Both the position numbers and the translations under genes were made by a program. The notes beneath the pieces are model-generated. The model made no database searches and was not told where the DNA came from. It saw nothing but the letters and a program-made list of their open reading frames with translations. DNA of 64,000 bases from an uncultured Caulobacteraceae bacterium. Its GTDB lineage: Bacteria; Pseudomonadota; Alphaproteobacteria; Caulobacterales; Caulobacteraceae. Positions 11,048 to 21,108 of the stretch are shown here, piece by piece. The stretch is from contig CAIQJF010000004.1 of the NCBI GenBank assembly GCA_903872075.1, positions 94,307-158,306 of the forward strand. The letters run 5' to 3'. The first letter of the stretch is position 1. Each line of letters opens with the position of its first letter.

Positions 11048-12063
11048 TGGGCGCCGGCCCGGCCCAGACCTTCGAAACCGCCTTAGGCGCCTGCATCGCC
11101 CGCCGGTTCGGCCCGGACGCCAAGGTGGCGCGGCTGGAGCGGCTGTCGGGCGGGGCGAGCCAGGAGCTTTGGGCATTCGACGTGGAGAGCCCCGAGGGAA
11201 CGCGCGAGCTGATCCTGCGCCGCAACCCCGGCGGCACGGTGAAGCGCGAGAACGCCGCCGGCATGGAGACCGAGGCGCGGCTGATCGAACTGGCCCGGGC
11301 GACAGGGACGCCGGTTCCCGAGGTGGTGCATGTTTTCAGCCCCGAGGAGGGTCTGGGCTCGGGCTTCCTGATGACGCGGATTCCCGGCGAGACCCTGGCC
11401 CGGCGGATCCTGCGCGACGATCTCTATGCCAGGGCGCGGCCGGTTCTGGCCCATCAGATGGGCGCGGCGGCGGCGCTGATCCACCGGATCGATCCGGCCA
11501 AGGCCGGGCCGCTGCGCGTCTCCACCGTGGAGAGCAGCCTGGACGGGGCCTATGCGCTCTACAAGGCCAATGGCGGGCGCCGGCCGGTGATCGAATGGGC
11601 GTTCCGCTGGCTGCGCGAGAACCGCCCGGCGACCGAGGCGACGCCGACGGTGGTGCATGGCGACATGCGCACCGGCAATATCATCGTGGGACCTGAGGGC
11701 CTGCGCGCGGTGCTGGACTGGGAGGTCGTGCACCTGGGCGATCCGATCTACGACCTGGGGTGGATCTGCACCCCGTCGTGGCGGTTCGGCGAGATCGACA
11801 AGCCGGCTGGGGGGTTCGGCTCCCGCGAGGACCTGTGGGCCGGCTATGAATCGGTGACCGGCGTTCCCGTGGACCGCCAGAGGGCCCGGTTCTGGGAAGT
11901 GATGAGCACCCTGCGCTGGGGCCTGAGCTGCGCGATGATGGCGCGCGAGTTCCAGGCCGGCGAGCGCAGCGTGGAGAAGGCCGCCATCGGCCGGCGGGCC
12001 TCGGAGGTGGAGGTCGACCTGTTGGCCATGCTGGCCGCGCCCGGAGGACAGCCCCTTGTATGA
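11047..12063 (+). CDS. lvaA: APH-family phosphotransferase, LvaA-like 4-hydroxyacyl-CoA kinase subunit
   Basis: ATG 11047; RLSGGASQELW, HGDMRTGN, LDWE and GDPIYDLGW motifs; followed by a small LvaB-like gene and an ACAD as in the P. putida lva operon. Confidence 0.7.
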   Translation: MGAGPAQTFETALGACIARRFGPDAKVARLERLSGGASQELWAFDVESPEGTRELILRRNPGGTVKRENAAGMETEARLIELARATGTPVPEVVHVFSPEEGLGSGFLMTRIPGETLARRILRDDLYARARPVLAHQMGAAAALIHRIDPAKAGPLRVSTVESSLDGAYALYKANGGRRPVIEWAFRWLRENRPATEATPTVVHGDMRTGNIIVGPEGLRAVLDWEVVHLGDPIYDLGWICTPSWRFGEIDKPAGGFGSREDLWAGYESVTGVPVDRQRARFWEVMSTLRWGLSCAMMAREFQAGERSVEKAAIGRRASEVEVDLLAMLAAPGGQPLV

Positions 12064-12568
12064 TCAGCCGACCGCCCGCGAGCTCATCGACGCCGTGCAG
12101 GGGTTTCTGCGCGACGAGGTTTCGCCGACCTTGAGCGGGCGGCTGGCCTTTCACGCCCGCGTGGCGGTGAATGTTCTGGAGACGGTGAAGCGGGAGCTGG
12201 AGCTGGGGCCGGGCGCCGTGGCCGGCGAGGGGGCGCGACTGGCGGCGTTGCTGGGGCGCGAGTTCCAGGCCGGCGAGCGCAGCGTGGAGAAGGCCGCCAT
12301 CGGCCGGCGGGCCTCGGAGGTGGAAGTCGACCTGCTGGCCATGCTGGTCGCGCCCGGAGGACAGCCCCTTGTATGATCAGCCGACAGCCCGCGAACTCAT
12401 CGACGCCGTGCAGGGGTTTCTGCGCGACGAGGTTTCGCCGACCCTGAGCGGACGCCTGGCCTTTCACGCCCGGGTGGCGGTGAATGTGCTGGAGACGGTG
12501 AAACGCGAGCTGGAGCTGGGGCCGGACGCCGTGGCCGGCGAGGGGGCGCGGCTGGCGGCGTTGCTGGG
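11943..12568 (+). repeat. 313-bp tandem duplication (11943-12255 / 12256-12568)
   Basis: Collinear copies with 14 substitutions counted by eye; GCGCGAG / GCGGGAG microhomology at the junctions. Confidence 0.95.
12056..12376 (+). CDS. Chimeric ORF: N-terminal part of the LvaB-like protein fused to the C-terminal helix of the LvaA-like protein
   Basis: MYDQPTARE...LAALLG|REFQAGERSVEKAAIG...GGQPLV, created by the duplication. Confidence 0.7.
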   Translation: MYDQPTARELIDAVQGFLRDEVSPTLSGRLAFHARVAVNVLETVKRELELGPGAVAGEGARLAALLGREFQAGERSVEKAAIGRRASEVEVDLLAMLVAPGGQPLV

Positions 12569-12771: not shown

Positions 12772-12954
12772 GCGCCCCCTCCACCGCCTTCGGCGGTCCC
12801 CCTCCCCCGTTGCACGGGGGAGGAGAAAGAAGCGGGAGCGCCCCCTCCGACCCTTTGGGCCACCTCCCCCGTTTTACGGGGGAGGAGAATATGGGCCTTC
12901 CTCCTCCCTTGCGCGGAGCGCGGGGGAGGTGGCGCGAAGCGCCGGAGGGGGCGC
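12772..12954. repeat. REP-like palindromic element, three units (two direct, one inverted)
   Basis: GCGCCCCCTCC starts at 12772 and 12838; GGAGGGGGCGC ends at 12954. Confidence 0.85.
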
Positions 12955-13012
12955 TTGGCCGCGCCGCCCCCCCCACCCTCACATCTGACCTGACCTGAAG
13001 AGGACCCCCGCC

Positions 13013-14493: not shown

Positions 14494-14678
14494 TGAACCG
14501 CGCGTTCCCGTCGCGCCGCGTTCGCATCAACACTCTGTTTCATAACGTTTTTTCGATTTTAGAGCGGCAACGGGACGGCGACTTGGGCGCGCGGCGGCGC
14601 CCAGGCGCTTGCGCCCCATCGCCCCGGCGGCGCGGTTATTGGGATGCTGGACGGTGAGAAAGATCGTTGGCAATTGCA

Positions 14679-15410
14679 TTATGCAATACCCAGGCGACCT
14701 AAGTCAATGGAAACCCTACCGACCTGCGCGTAGTTGAGCTGCTGACCGTCCGCACCCGCGTATTGCTGGGCGTCGAGCACAAATTTATGGAACTCGATCA
14801 ACTCATTGAGCGCCGCTTCGAATCCAGTGACCGCGGTGCGGTTGATCTGGCTGACGAGTTGGTCCGCCAACTCCTCAATGATGTCATCCGGCGTTGGGAG
14901 GTCCCGTCGTTCGTACCGAAGTCGCTCGAAGCGGAAGCTGAATCGGATGAGCTCCCTTTCCAGCCAATTGAGCCGATGGGGCCCCTCCCGTAGAAGCCAG
15001 CCTCGGGGCCCTTCCATCGGCTCATCGAAAGACACGCTGGATTCGATGCGATCCGACCAGCGCTCCTCCCTAAAGGCGCCGGCGCGCACGCGTTCCGGCG
15101 ATTGACGAACACGACGACGCCAACTCCACATCGCCAGGCCCAGCGGCCTGAACCAAACGTCGACGAGAACAGTCGGCGAGCGGAAGGTGGAAGAGATCTC
15201 GTGCGCTGCACGCTCCTCGAAGTTGATGCTATGGCCGAGAGTGAGTCGCGGACCGGCCTTGTTCTCCGCCTCGCCCATCAGTCGAAGCACCTGGCGGCGT
15301 TCCAAGCCCATCAACTCGCCGGCCGCCGAGACCGTTAACCGACCGGCCAACAGATCACGCAGGATCTCGACTCGGCTAAGCTCCTTGTCGCTCATGAAGT
15401 GTAACGCCAC
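14679..15410 (-). pseudogene. In-frame fusion of an IS transposase N-terminus (44 aa) to an internal fragment of an unknown protein
   Basis: MSDKELSRVEILRDLLAGRLTVSAAGELMGLERRQVLRL is an ISNCY/IS1202-type HTH start; no DDE domain follows; the remainder is unrelated. Confidence 0.65.
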
Positions 15411-15489
15411 CTGAGTGACCTCCCGCCCAAATGAGGGAGGGTGCCATCTCTAACTGGCACGGCGGTGACATTGCTAAATGGCGGCTACA
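15279..15489 (-). mobile_element. IS1202-family (ISNCY) left-end remnant
   Basis: Minus strand begins TGT at 15489, then two repeated subsites TAGCAATGTCAC / TAGAGATGGCAC, then the transposase HTH start. Confidence 0.65.
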
Positions 15490-15495
15490 CGCGAC

Positions 15496-15523
15496 TCTGC
15501 GCCCACGGCGTGTTATCGGAAGT
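15496..15523. other. Degenerate XerCD-type (xrs/dif-like) site
   Basis: TCTGCGCCCAC-GGCGTG-TTATCGGAAGT (11-6-11); one good arm, one degenerate; 6 bp from the IS end. Confidence 0.35.
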
Positions 15524-15757
15524 CGCCCCCGCGCGGACCTTCCAAACTGTTGAGATGGGCGGCAAGCGAAGCTGAAGAGAGCCCGGTCCCGAAGCGGCGG
15601 GCCCAACCCTACAGGCCGCCACAAGAACAGCTGCCACTCGGACGGGGCCGCCACGCCGACCCAGCCTCGACCTGTACCTCAAATCACGCCACGAATTGGC
15701 CTTCCGCAGCGATGAGACGTAGGGAGCATACTCCTATCTATATAACAACAAATAGAC

Positions 15758-16783
15758 GTGGCCGGCCAAAACCTTAGCCGGCAGGAGCGCGAGACACTCG
15801 CCCTTCGCCGCTTGATGCGGAACCTCGAAACCCTCGGGGTCGCAAACATGCGCACGCTGGAGATGAAAATATCAGACTCCGGTCCCATGGCCCAACGGGT
15901 GAACCCGCACGTCCTCACGCGGGTCCGAAACGCCCAACGCGACGCCGGCCGCCTGATCATCGTTAGCCAAATCTGGTATCACCGCTACAATGAACCCGAA
16001 GCTCGGGTGAAACAGCGCCTCGACGCGCTCAAGCCGATCTACGCCGCCACCAACAATACCAGTCTAAAGTTGCGGCTCGGCCAGACGTTGGAAATCGCCA
16101 TTTGGCGGGCTCTTGAACAAGGGTCACTGGACTTCGTGGGCGGGTTCCCCGATCTGGACGACCACGACGACAGCACCCTCTACAGCAAAGAGGAGCCGCC
16201 GCTTCGCTTCTCGGGCAAGCGGATGCCAGGCGACAAGCGGTTCGACTTCCTCGCCTTCCACCCGAGCGCCGGCAGCATCGGCATTGAGGCGAAAAACATT
16301 CGCGAGTGGATCTATCCCGACCGCAACGAGGTGAAGGAGCTCCTGCAAAAGGCTATCGTTTCCGACACGCTGCCGGTGCTGATCGGCCGCCGCATTCCCT
16401 ATGTGACGCGTCGCCTACTGGAAACGTGCGGGGTTCTGCTATTCGAAAACTACAACCAGCTATACCCGAATGCTGACGCCGCCACAGCGGCCGCAGCCGC
16501 CCAAAAGGACCTGCTCGGCTACCACGACATTCGCGTCGGCAACCAGCCAAATGGGCGGCTGTTGCAATTCATAACGGAGACGGTGCCCGCCTACGCAGAG
16601 GAAGCCCGCGCCCGCTTCGACCAGTACAGGGACCTGCTTTGGCAGTTTGCCAGCGGCGAGCTATATTACGCTTCTTTCGCGGCAAGGTTGCGTCGTCGTG
16701 AAAATGGCCACGACGAGGACTCCGATCACCCGCCTGGCTTCGATCCCGACGACATCGAGCCCGACGACGACGGCGACTGGTAA
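15758..16783 (+). CDS. Putative PD-(D/E)XK nuclease with N-terminal helical/wHTH region and acidic tail
   Basis: GQTLEIAI ... RFDFLA ... GIEAKN catalytic spacing; D/E-rich C-terminus. Confidence 0.65.
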   Translation: MAGQNLSRQERETLALRRLMRNLETLGVANMRTLEMKISDSGPMAQRVNPHVLTRVRNAQRDAGRLIIVSQIWYHRYNEPEARVKQRLDALKPIYAATNNTSLKLRLGQTLEIAIWRALEQGSLDFVGGFPDLDDHDDSTLYSKEEPPLRFSGKRMPGDKRFDFLAFHPSAGSIGIEAKNIREWIYPDRNEVKELLQKAIVSDTLPVLIGRRIPYVTRRLLETCGVLLFENYNQLYPNADAATAAAAAQKDLLGYHDIRVGNQPNGRLLQFITETVPAYAEEARARFDQYRDLLWQFASGELYYASFAARLRRRENGHDEDSDHPPGFDPDDIEPDDDGDW

Positions 16784-16803
16784 CGCCCGCACAACGAAGA
16801 GCA

Positions 16804-17319
16804 TCAAGGACGCGCTGCGGTCAGCGCATTTGTGAGTTCCGTTATCCTGCCAAGCATCTCACCCATATCTGATGACCATTTATCGAATTTGTCGAATTCA
16901 CCATTCGCTGTTACGTCATTTAGACAATTTTTCTTATCCATATCAATAACCGTTCGCAACGATTTTAGTTCAGAATCGAGATTTCCCGCGCTCACATGCA
17001 ACGAAAATGCAACAGCTTGCTTATCCGACGCGCTTGACATCTCCCCCATCAGAACGAGTTCGTCACCCAGCCACTCCAAATAAGGGCCAAGTTTACCAGC
17101 ATAGTATTCCATACGGCGGATACATGACGATTGGGCACTTCCATTTTCGAGTAAAGGCATGTAAATCTTATAATATTTATCTTTTTGCCCTAGATAATCC
17201 TTCGCCGTTGCCAATACGGCTTGCCGTGAGACGGTATCGTCTTCTGCCGCGACGCAGCAGAGGGGGCTAAACGCGGCAACAAATGCGACCGCCACATTGA
17301 ACAAGAAGGCCGCCCGCAT
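16804..17319 (-). CDS. AT-rich secreted hypothetical protein (ORFan-like)
   Basis: 171-aa open frame with signal peptide (MRAAFLFNVAVAFVAAFS..VAA); clearly lower GC than flanking genes. Confidence 0.65.
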   Translation of the reverse strand: MRAAFLFNVAVAFVAAFSPLCCVAAEDDTVSRQAVLATAKDYLGQKDKYYKIYMPLLENGSAQSSCIRRMEYYAGKLGPYLEWLGDELVLMGEMSSASDKQAVAFSLHVSAGNLDSELKSLRTVIDMDKKNCLNDVTANGEFDKFDKWSSDMGEMLGRITELTNALTAARP

Positions 17320-17652
17320 TTGCCCTATGACCCTGGTTGGGGAGGGCTAAGAAGCTATCAGCAACAGAGCCGCGAGACCACAATGGGCTGGATTCCCTTC
17401 GGGACTTAAATATGTGATAGAGAAAATTATCAGCGATTTCCGTGTATTAATCTGCCATGCACGTGGAATGATCACTGCTCGCCAGACAGGTCAGCCCTGA
17501 CGAGGCGGCAGACGTTCAGACATCCTCAGGTCGGAGCGACCACGAACGTATCTGGCTACTCACTTTTGTAGCGCTGACGCGATTGAGACCCTGGATTGAA
17601 GCACTCGTAGGTCCGCGCCGTGAGCTTACGCCAGACACGCAACGCCCCTCCC

Positions 17653-17945
17653 CTACTTCCTCAACCCCACCTCCCGCGCAAGCTCCGCTGGCGCCCCCGC
17701 CGGACCAACCTTCTGGGTATCCCGAGCGCCGCAGTCGTTGCCGGCTCGCATGGCACCGACCGGTGTGGCGGCGATCGTCGGCAGCAGCGCCGCCCGCAGG
17801 CGCTCCTCATGCGCCCGCTGGGGAGAGATCAGGATCACCGCGTCATAGGGCGGCAGGGCCTGGCGCGGATCGGCCGAGATGAGCAACCTGTCGGCGGCGA
17901 TCCGCCCCTCGCCGGAAAAGGCCGGGATCACGTCCGCCAGGCCGT
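17653..17945 (-). pseudogene. Orphan duplicate of the 3' end of the osmoprotectant ABC permease/SBP gene
   Basis: Collinear with 19552-19844 at constant 1899-bp offset; 67/94 aa identical by manual alignment. Confidence 0.9.
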
Positions 17946-18886: not shown

Positions 18887-19120
18887 ATGCTGGCCGACCT
18901 TGAGACCCGCATCACCTTCGACCCGAACCAATGTGGGGGGCGTCCGTGCGTGCGCGGCTTTCGCCTGCGGGTGACCGACGTGCTCGATATGCTCGCCAGC
19001 GGCGCCTCTCAGGAGGAGATTCTGTCGGACTATGAATTCCTTGAACCGGCCGACATTCGCGCCTGTCTCCACTACGCCTCTCGCCAACTCGACCACCCGG
19101 TGCTGATCGCCGCCGGCTGA
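18887..19120 (+). CDS. DUF433 family antitoxin
   Basis: RITFDPNQCGGRPCVRGFRLRVTDVLDML motif. Confidence 0.9.
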   Translation: MLADLETRITFDPNQCGGRPCVRGFRLRVTDVLDMLASGASQEEILSDYEFLEPADIRACLHYASRQLDHPVLIAAG

Positions 19121-19127
19121 TCGGCCC

Positions 19128-19457
19128 GTGCGCTTCCTGGTCGATGCGAACCTGCCTCGCCGCCTTGCCGAGTGGCTGGTTCTGCGTGGCCACGAGAGCG
19201 ACCACGTGCTGGATCTCGGCCTCGCGCGAAGCGTGGACGGCGATCTTTGGGCCAGGTGCATTGCGACGAACGCGGTCATCGTGACCAAGGACGAGGACTT
19301 CGCCAACTGGATCAGCGCCGGGAGGCCGGGCCCCGCCGTGGTCTGGCTGCGCACCGGCAACGGGACGACACAACGCCTCATCGAAAGTCTCACGCCTGTG
19401 TTTGAGGTCGTCGAAGCGCGCCTCGCGGCCGGGGATAGGCTTGTCGAGATCCGCTGA
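19128..19457 (+). CDS. DUF5615 PIN-like toxin (VapC45-like)
   Basis: MRFLVDANLP...IVTKDEDF motif; 7 bp after DUF433. Confidence 0.9.
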   Translation: MRFLVDANLPRRLAEWLVLRGHESDHVLDLGLARSVDGDLWARCIATNAVIVTKDEDFANWISAGRPGPAVVWLRTGNGTTQRLIESLTPVFEVVEARLAAGDRLVEIR

Positions 19458-19551
19458 TTGGCGATTGCCGCGAGGCCCAGCGCCGTCCGCTGCGAGAGTT
19501 CGCAATTGCGGCCAAGGAAAACAGTGATCCGGCGGCCTGTCGCCCAGCCCC

Positions 19552-21108
19552 CTACCGCGCCAACCCCACCCCCTTTGCCAGATCCGCCGCCGCCCGGGCC
19601 GGGCCGAGCTTCTGGGTGTCGCGATCGACGCTGTAGTTGGCCGCCTGCATGGCGGCGACGGGGATGGCGCCGATCATCGGGGCCAGGGCGGCGCGCAGGC
19701 GCGCGTCGTGCGCGCGCTGGGGCGAGATCAGGATCACTGCGTCATAGGGCGGCAGGGCCTGGCGCGGATCGGCCAGGACGAGCAGGTGGTCGGCGGCGAT
19801 GCGCCCGTCGCTGGAGAAGGCCGAGATCACGTCCGCCTGGCCGTCGGCCAGGGCGCGATACATGAAGGTGGGCTGGTAGGAGGTCTGGCGCCGGAAATTC
19901 AGGCCATAGGCGCCGCGCAGGGCCGCCCATTCGGGGCGGGAGAGAAACTCCAGGTCGGAGCCGAGGGTGAGCTGCGGCGCGCGGGCGGCGAGATCGGCGA
20001 TGGAGGCGATGCCCAGCTCGCGGGCGCGGTCGGCGCGCATGACCAGGGCGTAGGCGTTCTCGAACCCCAGGGCGCCCAGGACGGTCACCCCGTCGCGGCG
20101 GGCCAGCTCAGCGGTGAGGCCCGCCAGGACGGCGGCGCGGCCGGGGTTGTCCTTGCGGCCCAGGACATTGGCCCAGAGGGTGCCGGAATAGTCCACGTAG
20201 GTGTCGATCTCGCCCGCGGCCAGGGCGCGATAGGCGGTGGCCGAGCCCAGGTCCTGTTTGATGGCGACGCGGGCGCCGCCGGCGCGCAAGGGCGAGGCCA
20301 TCAGCTCGGCCAGGATATACTGCTCGCTGAAGTTCTTGGCGCCGATCTTGTAGCCGGCCTGGGCGGGGGCGACGATCAGGGGCGAGAGCGCCACAGCGGC
20401 GCCGACCACCAAGCCGATCAGCCCGGCCCAGATCCGCCAGGGCCGGCGCGCCGTGAGGCCCGATTCCACCAGACCCAGCAGCTGATCCACCGCCAGGGCG
20501 AGGACGGCCGAGGCGACGCAACCGAACAGCACATCGACCCAGTTCTCGGTCTGCAGGCCGGCGAAGATGTAGTTGCCGAGCGAGGTCTGGCCCACCGGGG
20601 TGGCGAGGGTGGCGGCGCCGATGGTCCACACCGCCGCGGTGCGGGCGCCGGCCATGATCACCGGCGCGGCCAGGGGCAGCTCGACCTGGAAGAGGCGCTG
20701 GCGCGCGGTCATGCCCATGCCGTCGGCCGCCTCCCGCACGGCGGGATCGACGCCGCCGAGGCCCGTGACCGTATTCCGCAGGATCGGCAGCAGGGCGTAG
20801 AGGGTCAGGGCCAGGAGCGAGGGGGCGAAGCCCAGGGCGGGAAAGCCGCGGCCGAACCAGGCGAGGCTGACGGCCGAGAGGGCCAGCAGCAGGGGATAGA
20901 ACATCGCCAGCAGGGCGAGGCTCGGGATGGTCTGGATCAGGCTGGCCAGGAACAGGCTGGGCCAGCGTACCGCGGCGCTGCGGCTGGCGGCGACGCCGAG
21001 CGGCAGGCTGATGGCGAAGCCCAGGACCAGGGCGCAGAGGCTGAGCAGGACATGCTGCGAGAGATAGCCGGGCAGCAGGGCCCAGGCGGCGGCGACGCGC
21101 TCATCCAT
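19552..21108 (-). CDS. Osmoprotectant (glycine betaine/choline-type) ABC permease fused to substrate-binding domain
   Basis: EAA loop (REAADGMGMT), IGAKNFSEQYIL and YVDYSGT motifs. Confidence 0.9.
   Translation of the reverse strand: MDERVAAAWALLPGYLSQHVLLSLCALVLGFAISLPLGVAASRSAAVRWPSLFLASLIQTIPSLALLAMFYPLLLALSAVSLAWFGRGFPALGFAPSLLALTLYALLPILRNTVTGLGGVDPAVREAADGMGMTARQRLFQVELPLAAPVIMAGARTAAVWTIGAATLATPVGQTSLGNYIFAGLQTENWVDVLFGCVASAVLALAVDQLLGLVESGLTARRPWRIWAGLIGLVVGAAVALSPLIVAPAQAGYKIGAKNFSEQYILAELMASPLRAGGARVAIKQDLGSATAYRALAAGEIDTYVDYSGTLWANVLGRKDNPGRAAVLAGLTAELARRDGVTVLGALGFENAYALVMRADRARELGIASIADLAARAPQLTLGSDLEFLSRPEWAALRGAYGLNFRRQTSYQPTFMYRALADGQADVISAFSSDGRIAADHLLVLADPRQALPPYDAVILISPQRAHDARLRAALAPMIGAIPVAAMQAANYSVDRDTQKLGPARAAADLAKGVGLAR

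What the first reader, a model, noticed from the sequence alone, without database searches (positions are those of the whole stretch)
15758..16783. Stand-alone wHTH-like + PD-(D/E)XK nuclease with acidic tail and no methyltransferase: candidate new anti-phage system
Seen: E...D...ExK spacing (GQTLEIAI / RFDFLA / GIEAKN), a conserved-looking NIREWIYP and GRRIPY extension, a basic helical N-terminus (ANMRTLEMKIS...VNPHVLTR) and a D/E-rich tail (DEDSDHPPGFDPDDIEPDDDGDW). The gene sits in a lower-GC islet next to IS debris, with no cognate MTase or immunity gene. Established: single-gene restriction-fold nucleases are frequent abortive-infection or modification-dependent defence effectors. Inference: a self-inhibited nuclease (acidic tail as DNA mimic) activated by phage DNA or protein. 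This is the best candidate in the window for an undescribed system.
Basis: partly seen in the sequence, partly recalled or inferred. Interest (0 to 1): 0.72.

Follow-up and report, generated by a model that had tools for sequence, protein, structure and literature searches.

The report
Mobile winged-helix nuclease plus DNA box
This is a real but uncharacterised single gene that fuses a DNA-binding winged-helix domain to a restriction-type nuclease and moves between distant bacteria together with a conserved 20-base DNA box at its edge; it may be a new self-contained defence or selfish element, but its function is untested.

Summary
It belongs to a conserved, unnamed family: 487 close homologs, about 940 clusters at 50% identity, all 320-350 aa, with no Pfam, NCBIfam, PADLOC or PHROGs hit. 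AlphaFold (pLDDT 93) gives an N-terminal winged helix, a PD-(D/E)XK core carrying invariant E112/D163/E177/K179, C-terminal helices and a disordered acidic-aromatic tail. The nuclease is NERD-like (shared D-x13-ExKN..WIY hairpin, borderline statistics). It is not an Mrr family member, although the architecture is Mrr-like. There is no conserved partner gene and no methyltransferase. The family is rare, spread patchily across many phyla, present on a few plasmids, absent from phages, and often decayed. The link to defence islands is weak.

The new finding is a sharply bounded 20-bp box, [A/C]TACTnCTAnATAYATATAA (window 15728-15747, 10 nt before the GTG). It accompanies the gene in 68 of 85 loci across phyla. 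Nucleotide homology to the closest relatives, which sit in unrelated contexts, starts at this box and ends at the stop codon. The unit is therefore box plus gene, about 1.06 kb. The most likely reading is an autoregulated, mobile stand-alone nuclease whose winged helix reads its own box. Its target and role (defence or selfish) are undetermined.

The parts
15728..15747 (+). Conserved 20-bp box ATACTCCTATCTATATAACA (family consensus [A/C]TACTnCTAnATAYATATAA). Its outer (TACT) edge coincides with the start of homology to relatives. Its AT-rich end (TATATAA, -10-like) faces the gene.
   Evidence: the motif lies within 200 nt of the gene in 68 of 85 loci, with 14 positions at >=1.5 bits and no information in the flanks; homology to L207/L208, L209 and L210-212 begins at window 15722-15727.
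15748..15757 (+). 10-nt spacer (acaaatagac) between box and start codon, with no Shine-Dalgarno sequence. The mRNA would be nearly leaderless if TATATAA is the -10 (inference).
   Evidence: the spacer is conserved in the closest relatives (CAWAAATARRC), followed by GTG, TTG or ATG.
15758..16783 (+). Gene for the 341-aa winged-helix / NERD-like PD-(D/E)XK nuclease (GTG start, TAA stop).
   Evidence: AlphaFold pLDDT 93, pTM 0.89.
15779..15988 (+). N-terminal winged-helix domain (aa 8-77): H1 8-26, H2 31-39, a long invariant H2-H3 loop 40-49, recognition helix 50-62, wing strands 66-69 and 73-76. Signature RTLExKxSDxGPxxxRxxPHxLTxxR.
   Evidence: secondary structure; cullin WHB and ZBP1 Z-alpha, prob 0.98-0.99, rmsd about 2 A; 12 invariant residues within aa 32-57.
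16058..16387 (+). PD-(D/E)XK core (aa 101-210): helix 101-120 with E112, strand 125-127, strand 164-168 preceded by D163, strand 172-179 with E177-x-K179, helix 190-201, strand 205-210.
   Evidence: topology. (conservation); weak fold hits dominated by AF1548, SfsA, NucS/EndoMS, PspGI, RecU and Mrr-type proteins; sub-threshold NERD hits in the same register.
16139..16243 (+). Clade-specific 35-residue insertion between strands 1 and 2 (aa 128-162), with invariant H136-D137-D138 and K144-E-E-P-P148. Role unknown.
   Evidence: invariant in the core clade. (not conserved in distant members).
16244..16318 (+). Catalytic hairpin and NERD-type signature: D163-x13-E177-A-K179-N180-x-R182-x-W184-x-Y186-P187.
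   Evidence: it aligns to pXO1 NERD 'D-x13-VETKNYEGWIYG' (hhalign E 0.012 against the single sequence, 0.009 against the profile). N180, R182, W184 and Y186 are >=95% conserved.
16388..16675 (+). C-terminal alpha/beta and helical extension (aa 211-306), including R211-R212, G225, Q234 and G254-Y-H-D257.
16676..16726 (+). Basic-acidic anchor F307-A-A-R-x-R-R-R-x-x-G-x-x-E-D-x-D323, conserved in the core clade.
   Evidence: the anchor was found in 108 of 118 full-length homologs.
16727..16780 (+). Low-confidence acidic-aromatic C-terminal tail (aa 324-341, HPPGFDPDDIEPDDDGDW).
   Evidence: pLDDT falls to 74, 63 and 38; the composition is conserved, the sequence is not.
14679..15410 (-). Context only: 243-aa ORF whose N-terminal HTH resembles ISNCY-type transposases, with no catalytic domain (likely IS remnant).
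14500..17500 (.). Context only: low-GC islet (0.50-0.63 against about 0.70). Only 15722-16781 of it is shared with relatives.

Best explanation
The gene and the 20-bp box just upstream form a self-contained module of about 1.06 kb that moves horizontally.

Shown:
- The protein is a compact fusion of a winged-helix DNA-binding domain and a divergent, NERD-like PD-(D/E)XK nuclease whose catalytic E-D-ExK tetrad is under strong purifying selection.
- It needs no conserved partner gene.
- The box and gene are conserved together across phyla.
- The box marks the edge of the unit.

Inferred:
- The nearly invariant winged-helix surface reads the equally invariant box.
- The AT-rich end of the box (TATATAA) lies 10-50 nt from the start codon and probably serves as or overlaps the -10 element. 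Binding there would then autoregulate expression.
- Autoregulation would let a potentially toxic nuclease establish itself in new hosts, in the way controller proteins do for restriction systems.
- The short spacer without a Shine-Dalgarno sequence suggests nearly leaderless expression that does not depend on the host.
- The nuclease then acts on nucleic acid in a conflict role, such as exclusion of foreign DNA or selfish maintenance.
- The conserved acidic-aromatic C-terminal tip probably modulates activity, either by docking on the protein's own basic DNA-binding surface or on a partner.

The substrate (DNA or RNA) and the trigger are not determined.
For: Fold and motifs:
- Searches give the alpha-beta-beta-beta-alpha-beta order with E112 on helix 1, D163 before strand 2 and ExK on strand 3.
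- Searches show the conservation.
- One search shows the winged helix (prob 0.98-0.99).
- The NERD hairpin matches (E about 0.01), and the Pfam NERD score reaches 19.5 bits in the same register.

Stand-alone status:
- No recurrent neighbour in 60 loci.
- No conserved small ORF.
- The ATPases next to the gene on two plasmids are unrelated to each other.

Box:
- Present in 68 of 85 loci, sharply bounded, one copy per locus.
- Its quality is independent of protein divergence (rho -0.04).
- In metagenome contigs of >=50% GC, 19 of 31 exact box matches have the gene adjacent.

Unit boundary: homology to relatives in four unrelated contexts spans only window 15722/15727 to 16753/16781.

Mobility and cost:
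- 79 loci among 185,579 species, spread across many phyla.
- 5 plasmids.
- Recombinase and IS neighbours.
- Truncated or frameshifted copies, and the L119 deletion remnant.

Transcription: three peat metatranscriptomes hold 99-100% identical contigs of the L040 copy.
Against: - No binding, cleavage or transcription-start data exist. The link between the winged helix and the box rests on co-conservation only. The correlation test was nearly uninformative because the winged-helix signature hardly varies (rho 0.25).
- The box is asymmetric, which is unlike typical dimeric operators.
- In one clade (10 of 68 loci, and 7 of 21 metagenome loci) the box sits inverted just after the stop codon. There it cannot be the sense promoter or operator.
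- About 11 box copies in GC-rich contigs have no gene.
- No -35 element is conserved, and the promoter scan did not call this site.
- Fold-search support for the nuclease fold is weak (E 0.05-0.9).
- Defence-gene enrichment near the gene is not clearly above the local background.
Confidence: 0.42

Rival explanations
1. Mrr-like type IV enzyme. The winged helix senses a DNA modification or an unusual DNA structure, and the nuclease cuts modified foreign DNA. No methyltransferase is needed because the host's own DNA lacks the mark. On this reading the box is only a regulatory site or is incidental.
For: It has the same N-terminal winged helix plus C-terminal PD-(D/E)XK layout and size as EcoKMrr. 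Winged-helix/nuclease fusions are documented 6mA-dependent enzymes that rarely have neighbouring MTases (PMC11037411). No MTase is linked to the gene. The family is absent from phages.
Against: No Mrr_N, Mrr_cat or DpnI-type domain was hit in 13 members scanned. hhalign against Mrr gives a probability of 0.2%. The invariant winged helix is matched by an invariant specific DNA box, which suggests sequence reading rather than modification reading. No modification data exist.
Confidence: 0.2
2. This is an abortive-infection or defence nuclease held inactive by its acidic tail, which acts as a DNA mimic, and it is released by a phage cue.
For: The acidic-aromatic C-terminal tip is conserved in composition across the family, including distant clades. 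It follows a basic RRR anchor. Some loci lie beside pAgo, CBASS, type IIG RM, PifA, DndB, QatA and MADS genes. A NERD-domain protein, ZwsA, is a stand-alone defence effector (bioRxiv 10.64898/2026.04.06.716636).
Against: The tail is disordered in the model, has <=5 residues after the anchor in 9 of 108 members, and is not shown to contact the DNA-binding surface. The rate of defence neighbours is similar 7-10 kb away. Housekeeping neighbours are common. No PADLOC model matches. The model does not explain the box.
Confidence: 0.18
3. Selfish site-specific nuclease. The box is the enzyme's recognition or cleavage site, and cutting next to it promotes spread or retention of the box-gene unit, in a homing-like, one-ended transposition-like or addiction-like way. 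Solo boxes are targets or relics.
For: The site is long, asymmetric and single-copy, and sits exactly at the unit boundary. Its position is flexible (5' in sense orientation or 3' inverted), but the AT-rich end faces the gene in 64 of 68 loci. Solo boxes occur among integrase debris. In L119 a deletion starts 3-4 nt from the box edge. The rare, patchy distribution with frequent decay resembles the life cycle of a homing endonuclease gene.
Against: There is no conserved target locus or homologous flank, which classical homing requires. There is no second end and no terminal inverted repeat. No target-site duplication was seen. No PD-(D/E)XK-only transposase is known (my own knowledge). The boxes next to the gene are intact, so the element would cut itself unless it is protected.
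Confidence: 0.17
4. RNA-targeting NERD nuclease. The catalytic domain cleaves RNA (host or invader), as in the two NERD proteins studied so far. The winged helix serves only for autoregulation or for binding structured RNA.
For: The nearest sequence family is NERD. ZwsA cleaves RNA phage genomes through E-D-ExK residues. The NERD domain of TbLrRP2 is required for rRNA processing (PMC12702573). Fold hits for the winged helix include Z-alpha type domains.
Against: NERD membership is itself borderline. The PD-(D/E)XK superfamily acts mostly on DNA. The Z-alpha signature tyrosine is absent from the recognition helix, as read from the alignment. There is no direct evidence either way.
Confidence: 0.12
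5. Housekeeping repair or recombination nuclease (NucS/EndoMS-like or resolvase-like).
For: Weak fold hits to NucS/EndoMS, RecU and SfsA. Some neighbours are RuvA, YebC and Fpg.
Against: The family is present in only about 0.04% of species genomes, patchily across phyla, with no synteny. It sits on plasmids and in low-GC islets and is often truncated.
Confidence: 0.03

Closest known systems
EcoKMrr (type IV methyl-directed restriction enzyme; Pfam Mrr_N + Mrr_cat)
   Same: A single polypeptide of about 300-340 aa with an N-terminal winged helix and a C-terminal PD-(D/E)XK-type nuclease. It has no methyltransferase partner and is carried as an accessory gene.
   Different: No detectable sequence relationship: hhalign probability 0.2%, and no Mrr_N or Mrr_cat hit. 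This family has a 35-residue insertion, an extra C-terminal helical region, an RRR..EDxD anchor and an acidic-aromatic tip. It also carries a cognate 20-bp box, which is not reported for Mrr as far as I know.
NERD domain proteins (PF08378): pXO1-01, ZwsA, TbLrRP2
   Same: The catalytic hairpin D-x13-ExKN...W-I-Y is shared. Pfam NERD scores are consistent but sub-threshold in the same register in 6 of the 13 family members scanned. ZwsA shows that a NERD nuclease can be a stand-alone defence effector.
   Different: Scores fall below the Pfam gathering score (best 19.5 against 22.1). Homology is limited to 32 columns. Classical NERD proteins lack the winged helix, and many carry a transmembrane segment, a topoisomerase zinc ribbon or a helicase. 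The two characterised NERD nucleases act on RNA.
Winged-helix fusion endonucleases (DpnI, FcyTI, HhiV4I, Ahi29725I and others; 6mA-dependent type IV systems, PMC11037411)
   Same: A modular winged-helix reader plus a nuclease, with neighbouring MTases rare and a combinatorial architecture.
   Different: In the DpnI type, the PD-(D/E)XK domain is N-terminal and the winged helix C-terminal. There is no DpnI-type domain hit here. Those winged helices read methylated ApT in short sites, whereas this family is tied to a specific 20-bp sequence.
Controller (C) protein / C-box autoregulation of mobile restriction-modification systems
   Same: A DNA-binding domain and a conserved operator at the promoter travel with a toxic nuclease gene and would allow safe establishment after transfer. 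This comparison rests on my own knowledge of C-protein systems.
   Different: The site is asymmetric, single, and sometimes lies at the 3' end. Regulation has not been shown.
Free-standing homing endonuclease genes
   Same: One gene, a long asymmetric site nearby, a sporadic distribution and frequent degeneration.
   Different: There is no conserved target locus, intron or intein. Contexts are unrelated. The box is intact next to the gene.

Membership tests
PD-(D/E)XK nuclease superfamily | Core alpha-beta-beta-beta-alpha-beta topology | tested here: met
   AlphaFold models have pLDDT 93 and 96. The order is helix 101-120, strands 125-127, 164-168 and 172-179, helix 190-201, strand 205-210.
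PD-(D/E)XK nuclease superfamily | Catalytic E (helix 1), D (start of strand 2) and (D/E)xK (strand 3), all conserved | tested here: met
   E112, D163, E177 and K179 are invariant in 36 sequences. In 64 sequences with a median identity of 30%, three are >=95% conserved and D163 is 85-95% conserved.
PD-(D/E)XK nuclease superfamily | Significant structural match to a solved member | tested here: inconclusive
   Top Foldseek hits are members (AF1548, SfsA, NucS/EndoMS, PspGI, Can2), but E is 0.05-0.9 and TM about 0.3.
NERD (Pfam PF08378) | Score at or above the Pfam gathering threshold (22.1 bits) | tested here: not met
   Scores range from 12.8 to 19.5 bits in 6 of the 13 family members scanned, always over the D..ExK strands.
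NERD (Pfam PF08378) | Signature hairpin D-x13-ExKN..W-[IL]-[YF] | tested here: met
   The family profile aligns to a profile of bona fide NERD proteins over 32 columns, hhalign E 0.009.
Mrr family (type IV) | Mrr_N winged helix and Mrr_cat nuclease homology | tested here: not met
   E. coli Mrr hits both domains strongly. No family member hits either at E <= 1. hhalign probability is 0.2%.
Mrr family (type IV) | Cleavage dependent on DNA modification | not testable with these tools
   Needs biochemistry or in vivo restriction assays.
Winged-helix fusion 6mA-dependent endonucleases (DpnI-like) | DpnI-type winged helix; toxicity in Dam+ hosts | tested here: inconclusive
   No DpnI or DpnI_C Pfam hit. 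The winged-helix fold is generic (cullin WHB, Z-alpha). Dam dependence is not testable here.
Known anti-phage systems (PADLOC-DB v2.0.0) | Match to any model of a known or candidate defence protein | tested here: not met
   No hit at E <= 1. DefenseFinder and models made after 2023 were not available.
Defence-island gene (guilt by association) | Defence genes enriched in the neighbourhood relative to background | tested here: inconclusive
   About 17-18 of 256 ORFs within three genes hit PADLOC models, against about 9 of 149 ORFs 7-10 kb away. The nearby hits are more specific (pAgo, CBASS, type IIG, PifA, DndB).
Toxin-antitoxin or two-gene system | Conserved adjacent partner gene | tested here: not met
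   No recurrent neighbour in 60 loci. No conserved small ORF within 500 nt.
Insertion sequence or transposon | Two related ends (terminal inverted repeats) around the gene | tested here: not met
   PWM scan of the opposite side: 4 of 55 loci score above the control 95th percentile. Bracketing inverted repeats are no longer than in controls.
Homing endonuclease gene | Conserved target locus with homologous flanks; intron or intein or a fixed intergenic site | tested here: not met
   Flanks are unrelated even among relatives at 70-84% nucleotide identity, and there is no synteny.
Z-alpha (Z-DNA/Z-RNA binding) winged helix | Conserved Asn and Tyr on the recognition helix plus Trp on the wing | tested here: not met
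   W73 on the wing is conserved and N58 is common, but no Tyr lies at the +4 position (D62, with K as consensus). Read from alignment A1; the Z-alpha signature itself is from my own knowledge.

The most novel reading that the evidence does not exclude
The box-plus-gene unit is a previously unrecognised kind of minimal, self-contained genetic element. It would be a single PD-(D/E)XK (NERD-like) nuclease whose fused winged helix recognises a 20-bp site at the edge of its own gene. That one protein-DNA interaction would control its expression and also promote its own retention or spread, or defend the host, across bacterial phyla without any recombinase, methyltransferase or antitoxin.
Probability: 0.2. 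Interest if true: 0.8.

Novelty: new variant of a known kind. Interest (0 to 1): 0.62.

Why it matters
The family has about 940 clusters at 50% identity across many phyla, yet it has no name, no domain model and no studied member.

It combines three things in one small gene of about 1 kb: a restriction-fold nuclease with intact catalytic residues, a sequence-reading winged helix, and a co-travelling 20-bp DNA site that has stayed nearly invariant while the protein diverged to about 30% identity.

If the winged helix reads the box, this is a compact natural pairing of a long specific DNA site with a nuclease. That would be of interest as a model for how toxic nucleases establish themselves after horizontal transfer, and possibly as a programmable-site tool.

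If the nuclease defends the host, it adds a single-gene system that current defence catalogues miss. If it is selfish, it is an unusual minimal mobile element.

Each alternative can be tested with simple binding, cleavage, reporter and challenge experiments.

Tried and rejected
1. Conserved partner gene. All-against-all clustering of ORFs within 5 kb in 60 loci found only serine recombinases (7 loci) and tyrosine integrases (5 loci), at variable positions. No small ORF or conserved non-coding block was found apart from the box. The ~510-aa ATPases next to the gene on two plasmids are unrelated to each other and absent elsewhere.

2. Mrr membership: rejected.

3. END nucleases: these are PLD-type and unrelated.

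4. Sequence relatives with solved structures: none, using either the single sequence or the profile.

5. A second box copy or terminal inverted repeats: rejected.

6. An invertible gene segment bracketed by locus-specific inverted repeats: rejected.

7. Gene remnants beside solo boxes: none by HMM search. Only L119 shows one, found by eye.

8. Winged-helix signature against box quality: a weak and nearly uninformative correlation, because the signature hardly varies.

9. Literature search for the box sequence: only irrelevant hits.

10. Transcription start from RNA data. The window comes from a lake-water metagenome with no RNA runs. An isolate locus had none. A plasmid locus could not be submitted. 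Peat metatranscriptomes show transcripts of the L040 gene body but give no 5' end.

11. Boundary mapping in the clade with the box at the 3' end: the pairs are too diverged.

Full report
OBSERVATION. Every quoted peptide is present. The region has lower GC (0.50-0.63 between 14500 and 17500, against about 0.70 on either side). The upstream 243-aa ORF (14679-15410, - strand) resembles ISNCY-type transposases only in its N-terminal HTH, so 'IS debris' is plausible but thin. The downstream 171-aa ORF (16804-17319, - strand) has no detectable relatives and was not called as a gene in a public annotation of the same sequence.

THE PROTEIN FAMILY. The product has 487 homologs at E <= 1e-3 in the 5.8-billion-protein collection, all annotated 'hypothetical' and none with a precomputed Pfam domain. 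An exhaustive profile search finds 938 representative clusters at 50% identity. Full-length members are uniformly 320-350 aa, and the few longer ones only carry N-terminal extensions with no added domains. Pfam gives only a sub-threshold NERD hit. NCBIfam, PHROGs and PADLOC give nothing.

In 36 homologs of 48-89% identity, 53 columns are invariant. They include:
- E112, D163, E177 and K179;
- an N-terminal block, R32-T-L-E-x-K-x-x-D-x-G-P-x-x-x-R-x-x-P-H51 ... R57;
- H136-D-D and E145-E-P;
- N180-x-R-x-W-x-Y-P187;
- R211-R212;
- G254-x-H-D257;
- a C-terminal F307..R310..R313-R314..G317..E320..D323.

In a wider set (64 sequences, median identity 30%) the survivors at >=95% are P50, E112, E177, K179, N180, R182, W184, Y186, P206, R211, G225 and Q234. 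D163, E35, K37, G42 and P43 are at 85-95%. The catalytic tetrad is therefore under strong selection. This is not a dead nuclease.

STRUCTURE. AlphaFold2 with the family alignment gives a very confident single-body model (pLDDT 93, pTM 0.89). A domain-only model of aa 92-321 gives pLDDT 96.

Residues 8-77 form a winged helix. It matches cullin WHB and ZBP1 Z-alpha domains with probability 0.98-0.99 and rmsd of about 2 A.

Residues 101-210 have the canonical PD-(D/E)XK order, with E112 on the first helix, D163 at the start of strand 2 and E177-x-K179 on strand 3. A clade-specific 35-residue insertion lies between strands 1 and 2.

Fold searches with the whole chain and with the nuclease part return no significant hit (best E 0.05). 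However, the top of each list is dominated by PD-(D/E)XK enzymes: AF1548, SfsA, NucS/EndoMS, PspGI and Can2 in the PDB, and endonuclease I, RecU and Mrr-type proteins in BFVD. I take the fold as established by topology plus motif plus this consistent weak signal, not by any single score.

The last ~20 residues have low confidence.

WHICH NUCLEASE FAMILY. E. coli Mrr has the same layout, a winged helix followed by a PD-(D/E)XK nuclease, and scores strongly on Mrr_N and Mrr_cat. The family profile shows no relationship to it (hhalign probability 0.2%), and no member hits Mrr or DpnI models. So the family resembles Mrr in architecture but is not a member.

The nearest sequence family is NERD. Six of the 13 members scanned give sub-threshold NERD hits in the same register, the best at 19.5 bits against a cut-off of 22.1. 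The founding NERD protein of plasmid pXO1 reads D-x13-VETKNYEGWIYG where this family reads D-x13-IEAKNIREWIYP. A profile of bona fide NERD proteins aligns to the family profile over 32 columns with E = 0.009. I call the domain NERD-like, with membership borderline.

The only two NERD nucleases with functional data act on RNA. They are ZwsA, a stand-alone effector against RNA phages, and trypanosome TbLrRP2. The substrate here is therefore open.

STAND-ALONE STATUS, DISTRIBUTION AND CONTEXT. Among one genome for each of 185,579 species, only 79 loci encode a relative. They are scattered over Alpha-, Gamma- and Deltaproteobacteria, Acidobacteriota, Verrucomicrobiota, Gemmatimonadota, Latescibacterota, Parcubacteria, a Planococcus, and distant actinobacterial and Chloroflexi forms. 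Several copies are truncated.

The family is on 5 of 72,556 plasmids (one copy frameshifted), in none of 50,697 phage genomes, and on 1 of 2.9 million viral contigs, at a contig end.

Clustering all ORFs within 5 kb in 60 loci shows no recurrent neighbour except serine recombinases (7 loci) and tyrosine integrases (5 loci), at variable positions.

A census of 256 ORFs within three genes of the family gene gave the following.
- About 17-18 PADLOC hits: pAgo, type IIG RM, PifA, DndB, a CBASS cyclase with 2TM and TIR effectors, QatA, TerY, DrmC, MADS components and PDC-S20.
- About as many mobile-element genes: resolvases, integrases, IS66, rve, Tn3 and RepA.
- Plain housekeeping genes as well.

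A control set 7-10 kb away gives a similar hit rate (about 9 of 149), though the matches are more generic. The defence-island argument is therefore weak. The gene is accessory cargo of variable, mobile regions.

THE TAIL. After the RRRxxGxxEDxD anchor comes a tail with a median length of 12 residues. Its net charge is <= -3 in 87 of 108 members, and 9 of 108 have <=5 residues there. Across 206 complete members, including very distant ones that end in ..GDW..MGW..GGW or ..DMDF, an aromatic residue lies within the last three positions in 71%. About 24% is expected from composition. The acidic-aromatic tip is thus a selected feature. In composition it recalls the C-terminal tips of single-strand-binding proteins (my own knowledge). 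Its role, whether self-inhibition or partner docking, is inference only.

THE NEW FINDING: A CO-TRAVELLING 20-bp BOX. While inspecting sequence downstream of the gene in acidobacterial loci, I found an AT-rich motif abutting the gene. The exact 19-mer occurs once per locus in 14 loci, always next to the gene.

With mismatches allowed, it lies within 200 nt of the gene in 68 of 85 loci. Most exceptions are truncated genes, contig ends or the most divergent homologs.

The consensus on the sense strand is [A/C]TACTnCTAnATAYATATAA. Fourteen positions carry >=1.5 bits and the flanks carry none.

The arrangements are as follows.
- In 54 loci it lies upstream in sense orientation, ending a median of 20 nt before the N-terminus-equivalent position.
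- In 10 loci (one largely acidobacterial clade) it lies inverted 3-30 nt after the stop codon.
- Four loci have other arrangements.
- In 64 of the 68 loci (the first two arrangements) the AT-rich end faces the gene.

The window's copy is ATACTCCTATCTATATAACA at 15728-15747, 10 nt before the GTG.

Further properties:
- Box quality does not decline with protein divergence (rho -0.04).
- There is no second copy on the other side of the gene and no bracketing inverted repeats.
- Among contigs of >=50% GC, where chance matches are implausible, 19 of 31 have the family gene adjacent in one of the known arrangements.
- Of the other 12, one (L119) has the box fused to the last 30 codons of the gene, one is at a contig end, and about ten are solo boxes among unknown ORFs and integrase fragments.
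- Hits in AT-rich contigs are mostly gene-less and probably arise by chance.
- The sequence is not described in the searchable literature.

UNIT BOUNDARIES. The window's closest relatives lie in unrelated contexts:
- a chromosomal site between a PQQ dehydrogenase and a PhoH-like gene (L207/L208, 84% nucleotide identity);
- a small Rep3/resolvase plasmid-like contig (L209, 79%);
- an RPA/ParA plasmid-like contig (L210-212, 70%).

Nucleotide homology with the window runs only from 15722/15727 to 16753/16781. It begins 1-6 nt before the box and ends at the stop codon. In this clade the start codon (GTG, TTG or ATG) follows the box by 11 nt, with a conserved spacer and no Shine-Dalgarno sequence.

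What is conserved and moved is therefore box + spacer + gene, about 1.06 kb. The rest of the low-GC islet is not part of it.

INTERPRETATION.

Shown:
- a catalytically intact winged-helix/NERD-like PD-(D/E)XK protein;
- no partner gene;
- a mobile, sporadic distribution;
- a single, oriented, highly conserved 20-bp site at the edge of the unit;
- transcripts of one member in three peat metatranscriptomes (with the usual caveat that DNA carry-over is possible).

Inferred: the invariant winged-helix surface reads the invariant box. This is the simplest account of why a non-coding 20-mer stays fixed across phyla with no other co-travelling gene. The position of the box suggests promoter overlap and autoregulation. 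The short spacer without a Shine-Dalgarno sequence suggests nearly leaderless, host-independent expression.

Unexplained by this model: the clade with the box inverted at the 3' end, the asymmetry of the site, and the solo boxes. These keep alive a rival in which the box is a cis-acting recognition or cleavage site of a selfish element.

Several of these are compatible with autoregulation. A housekeeping role is effectively excluded by the distribution.

VERDICT. The anti-phage and DNA-mimic mechanism is not established. The family is new to the domain and defence databases I could query. Its architecture is a variant of a known kind (a winged helix plus a restriction-fold nuclease, like Mrr). 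The box-gene module is, as far as I could find, undescribed.

Noticed in passing
window 11932-12544: A 300-nt tandem duplication (copies at 11932-12231 and 12245-12544, 95% identical, spacing 313). It duplicates the junction between the end of the 657-aa ORF and the start of the next ORF, so the peptide MYDQPTARELIDAVQGF... is encoded twice.
   Followed up: no
window 17650-17945 and 19549-19844: A diverged (80%) copy of the 3' end of the OpuAC/permease fusion gene. The two copies bracket an aldo-keto reductase gene and a DUF433 + DUF5615/PIN-like pair, which suggests that this block arrived by recombination with a donor's homologous gene.
   Followed up: partly
window 12772-12955: A cluster of GC-rich palindromic or direct repeats (GGGGGAGG-type; 35-nt arms, 89% complementary) in the intergenic region before the acyl-CoA dehydrogenase gene. 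It looks REP-like.
   Followed up: no
window 16804-17319 (-): A 171-aa ORF with a signal-peptide-like N-terminus in the lowest-GC stretch (0.50), convergent with the nuclease gene. It has no family or plasmid match and was not called in a public annotation of the same sequence. It is not part of the conserved unit.
   Followed up: partly
window 18887-19457: A DUF433 (77 aa) plus DUF5615/PIN_10-like (109 aa) pair, a probable toxin-antitoxin module next to the islet.
   Followed up: no
L119 3440-3560: The box is followed within 3-4 nt by the last ~30 codons of the family gene (REFAARVRRRQTGSDEDNDWEDSDPADWDL*). This is an internal deletion whose left end lies at the box edge.
   Followed up: partly
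L146 2021-2235: An N-terminal fragment of the gene (aa 11-74) is followed 5 nt later by a sense-oriented box. This may be a rearranged or tandem remnant.
   Followed up: no
L040 11014-11032: One of two loci where the box lies downstream of the gene in sense orientation, about 90 nt upstream of the next ORF (11125-12288). In L108 a solo box lies 15 nt upstream of an unrelated ORF that has a good Shine-Dalgarno sequence. The box may therefore be able to serve other genes.
   Followed up: partly
L083 (Acidiphilium multivorum plasmid) 1-2508: A ThiF adenylyltransferase, a multiubiquitin-domain protein and a WYL regulator (a ubiquitin-like conjugation module of the kind linked to defence) lie 4.5 kb from the family gene on a 34-kb plasmid. 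A near-identical match occurs on an Acidithiobacillus ferrooxidans plasmid.
   Followed up: no
neighbour sets A4 and A5 (loci): MADS components (mad2 within three genes; mad6 and mad8 at 7-10 kb) appear around the gene in one or two loci, so some copies sit beside a large MADS locus.
   Followed up: no
L048, L049, L057: Three acidobacterial loci share 160+ nt of about 85% identical sequence downstream of the box, so they are syntenic relatives rather than independent insertions.
   Followed up: no
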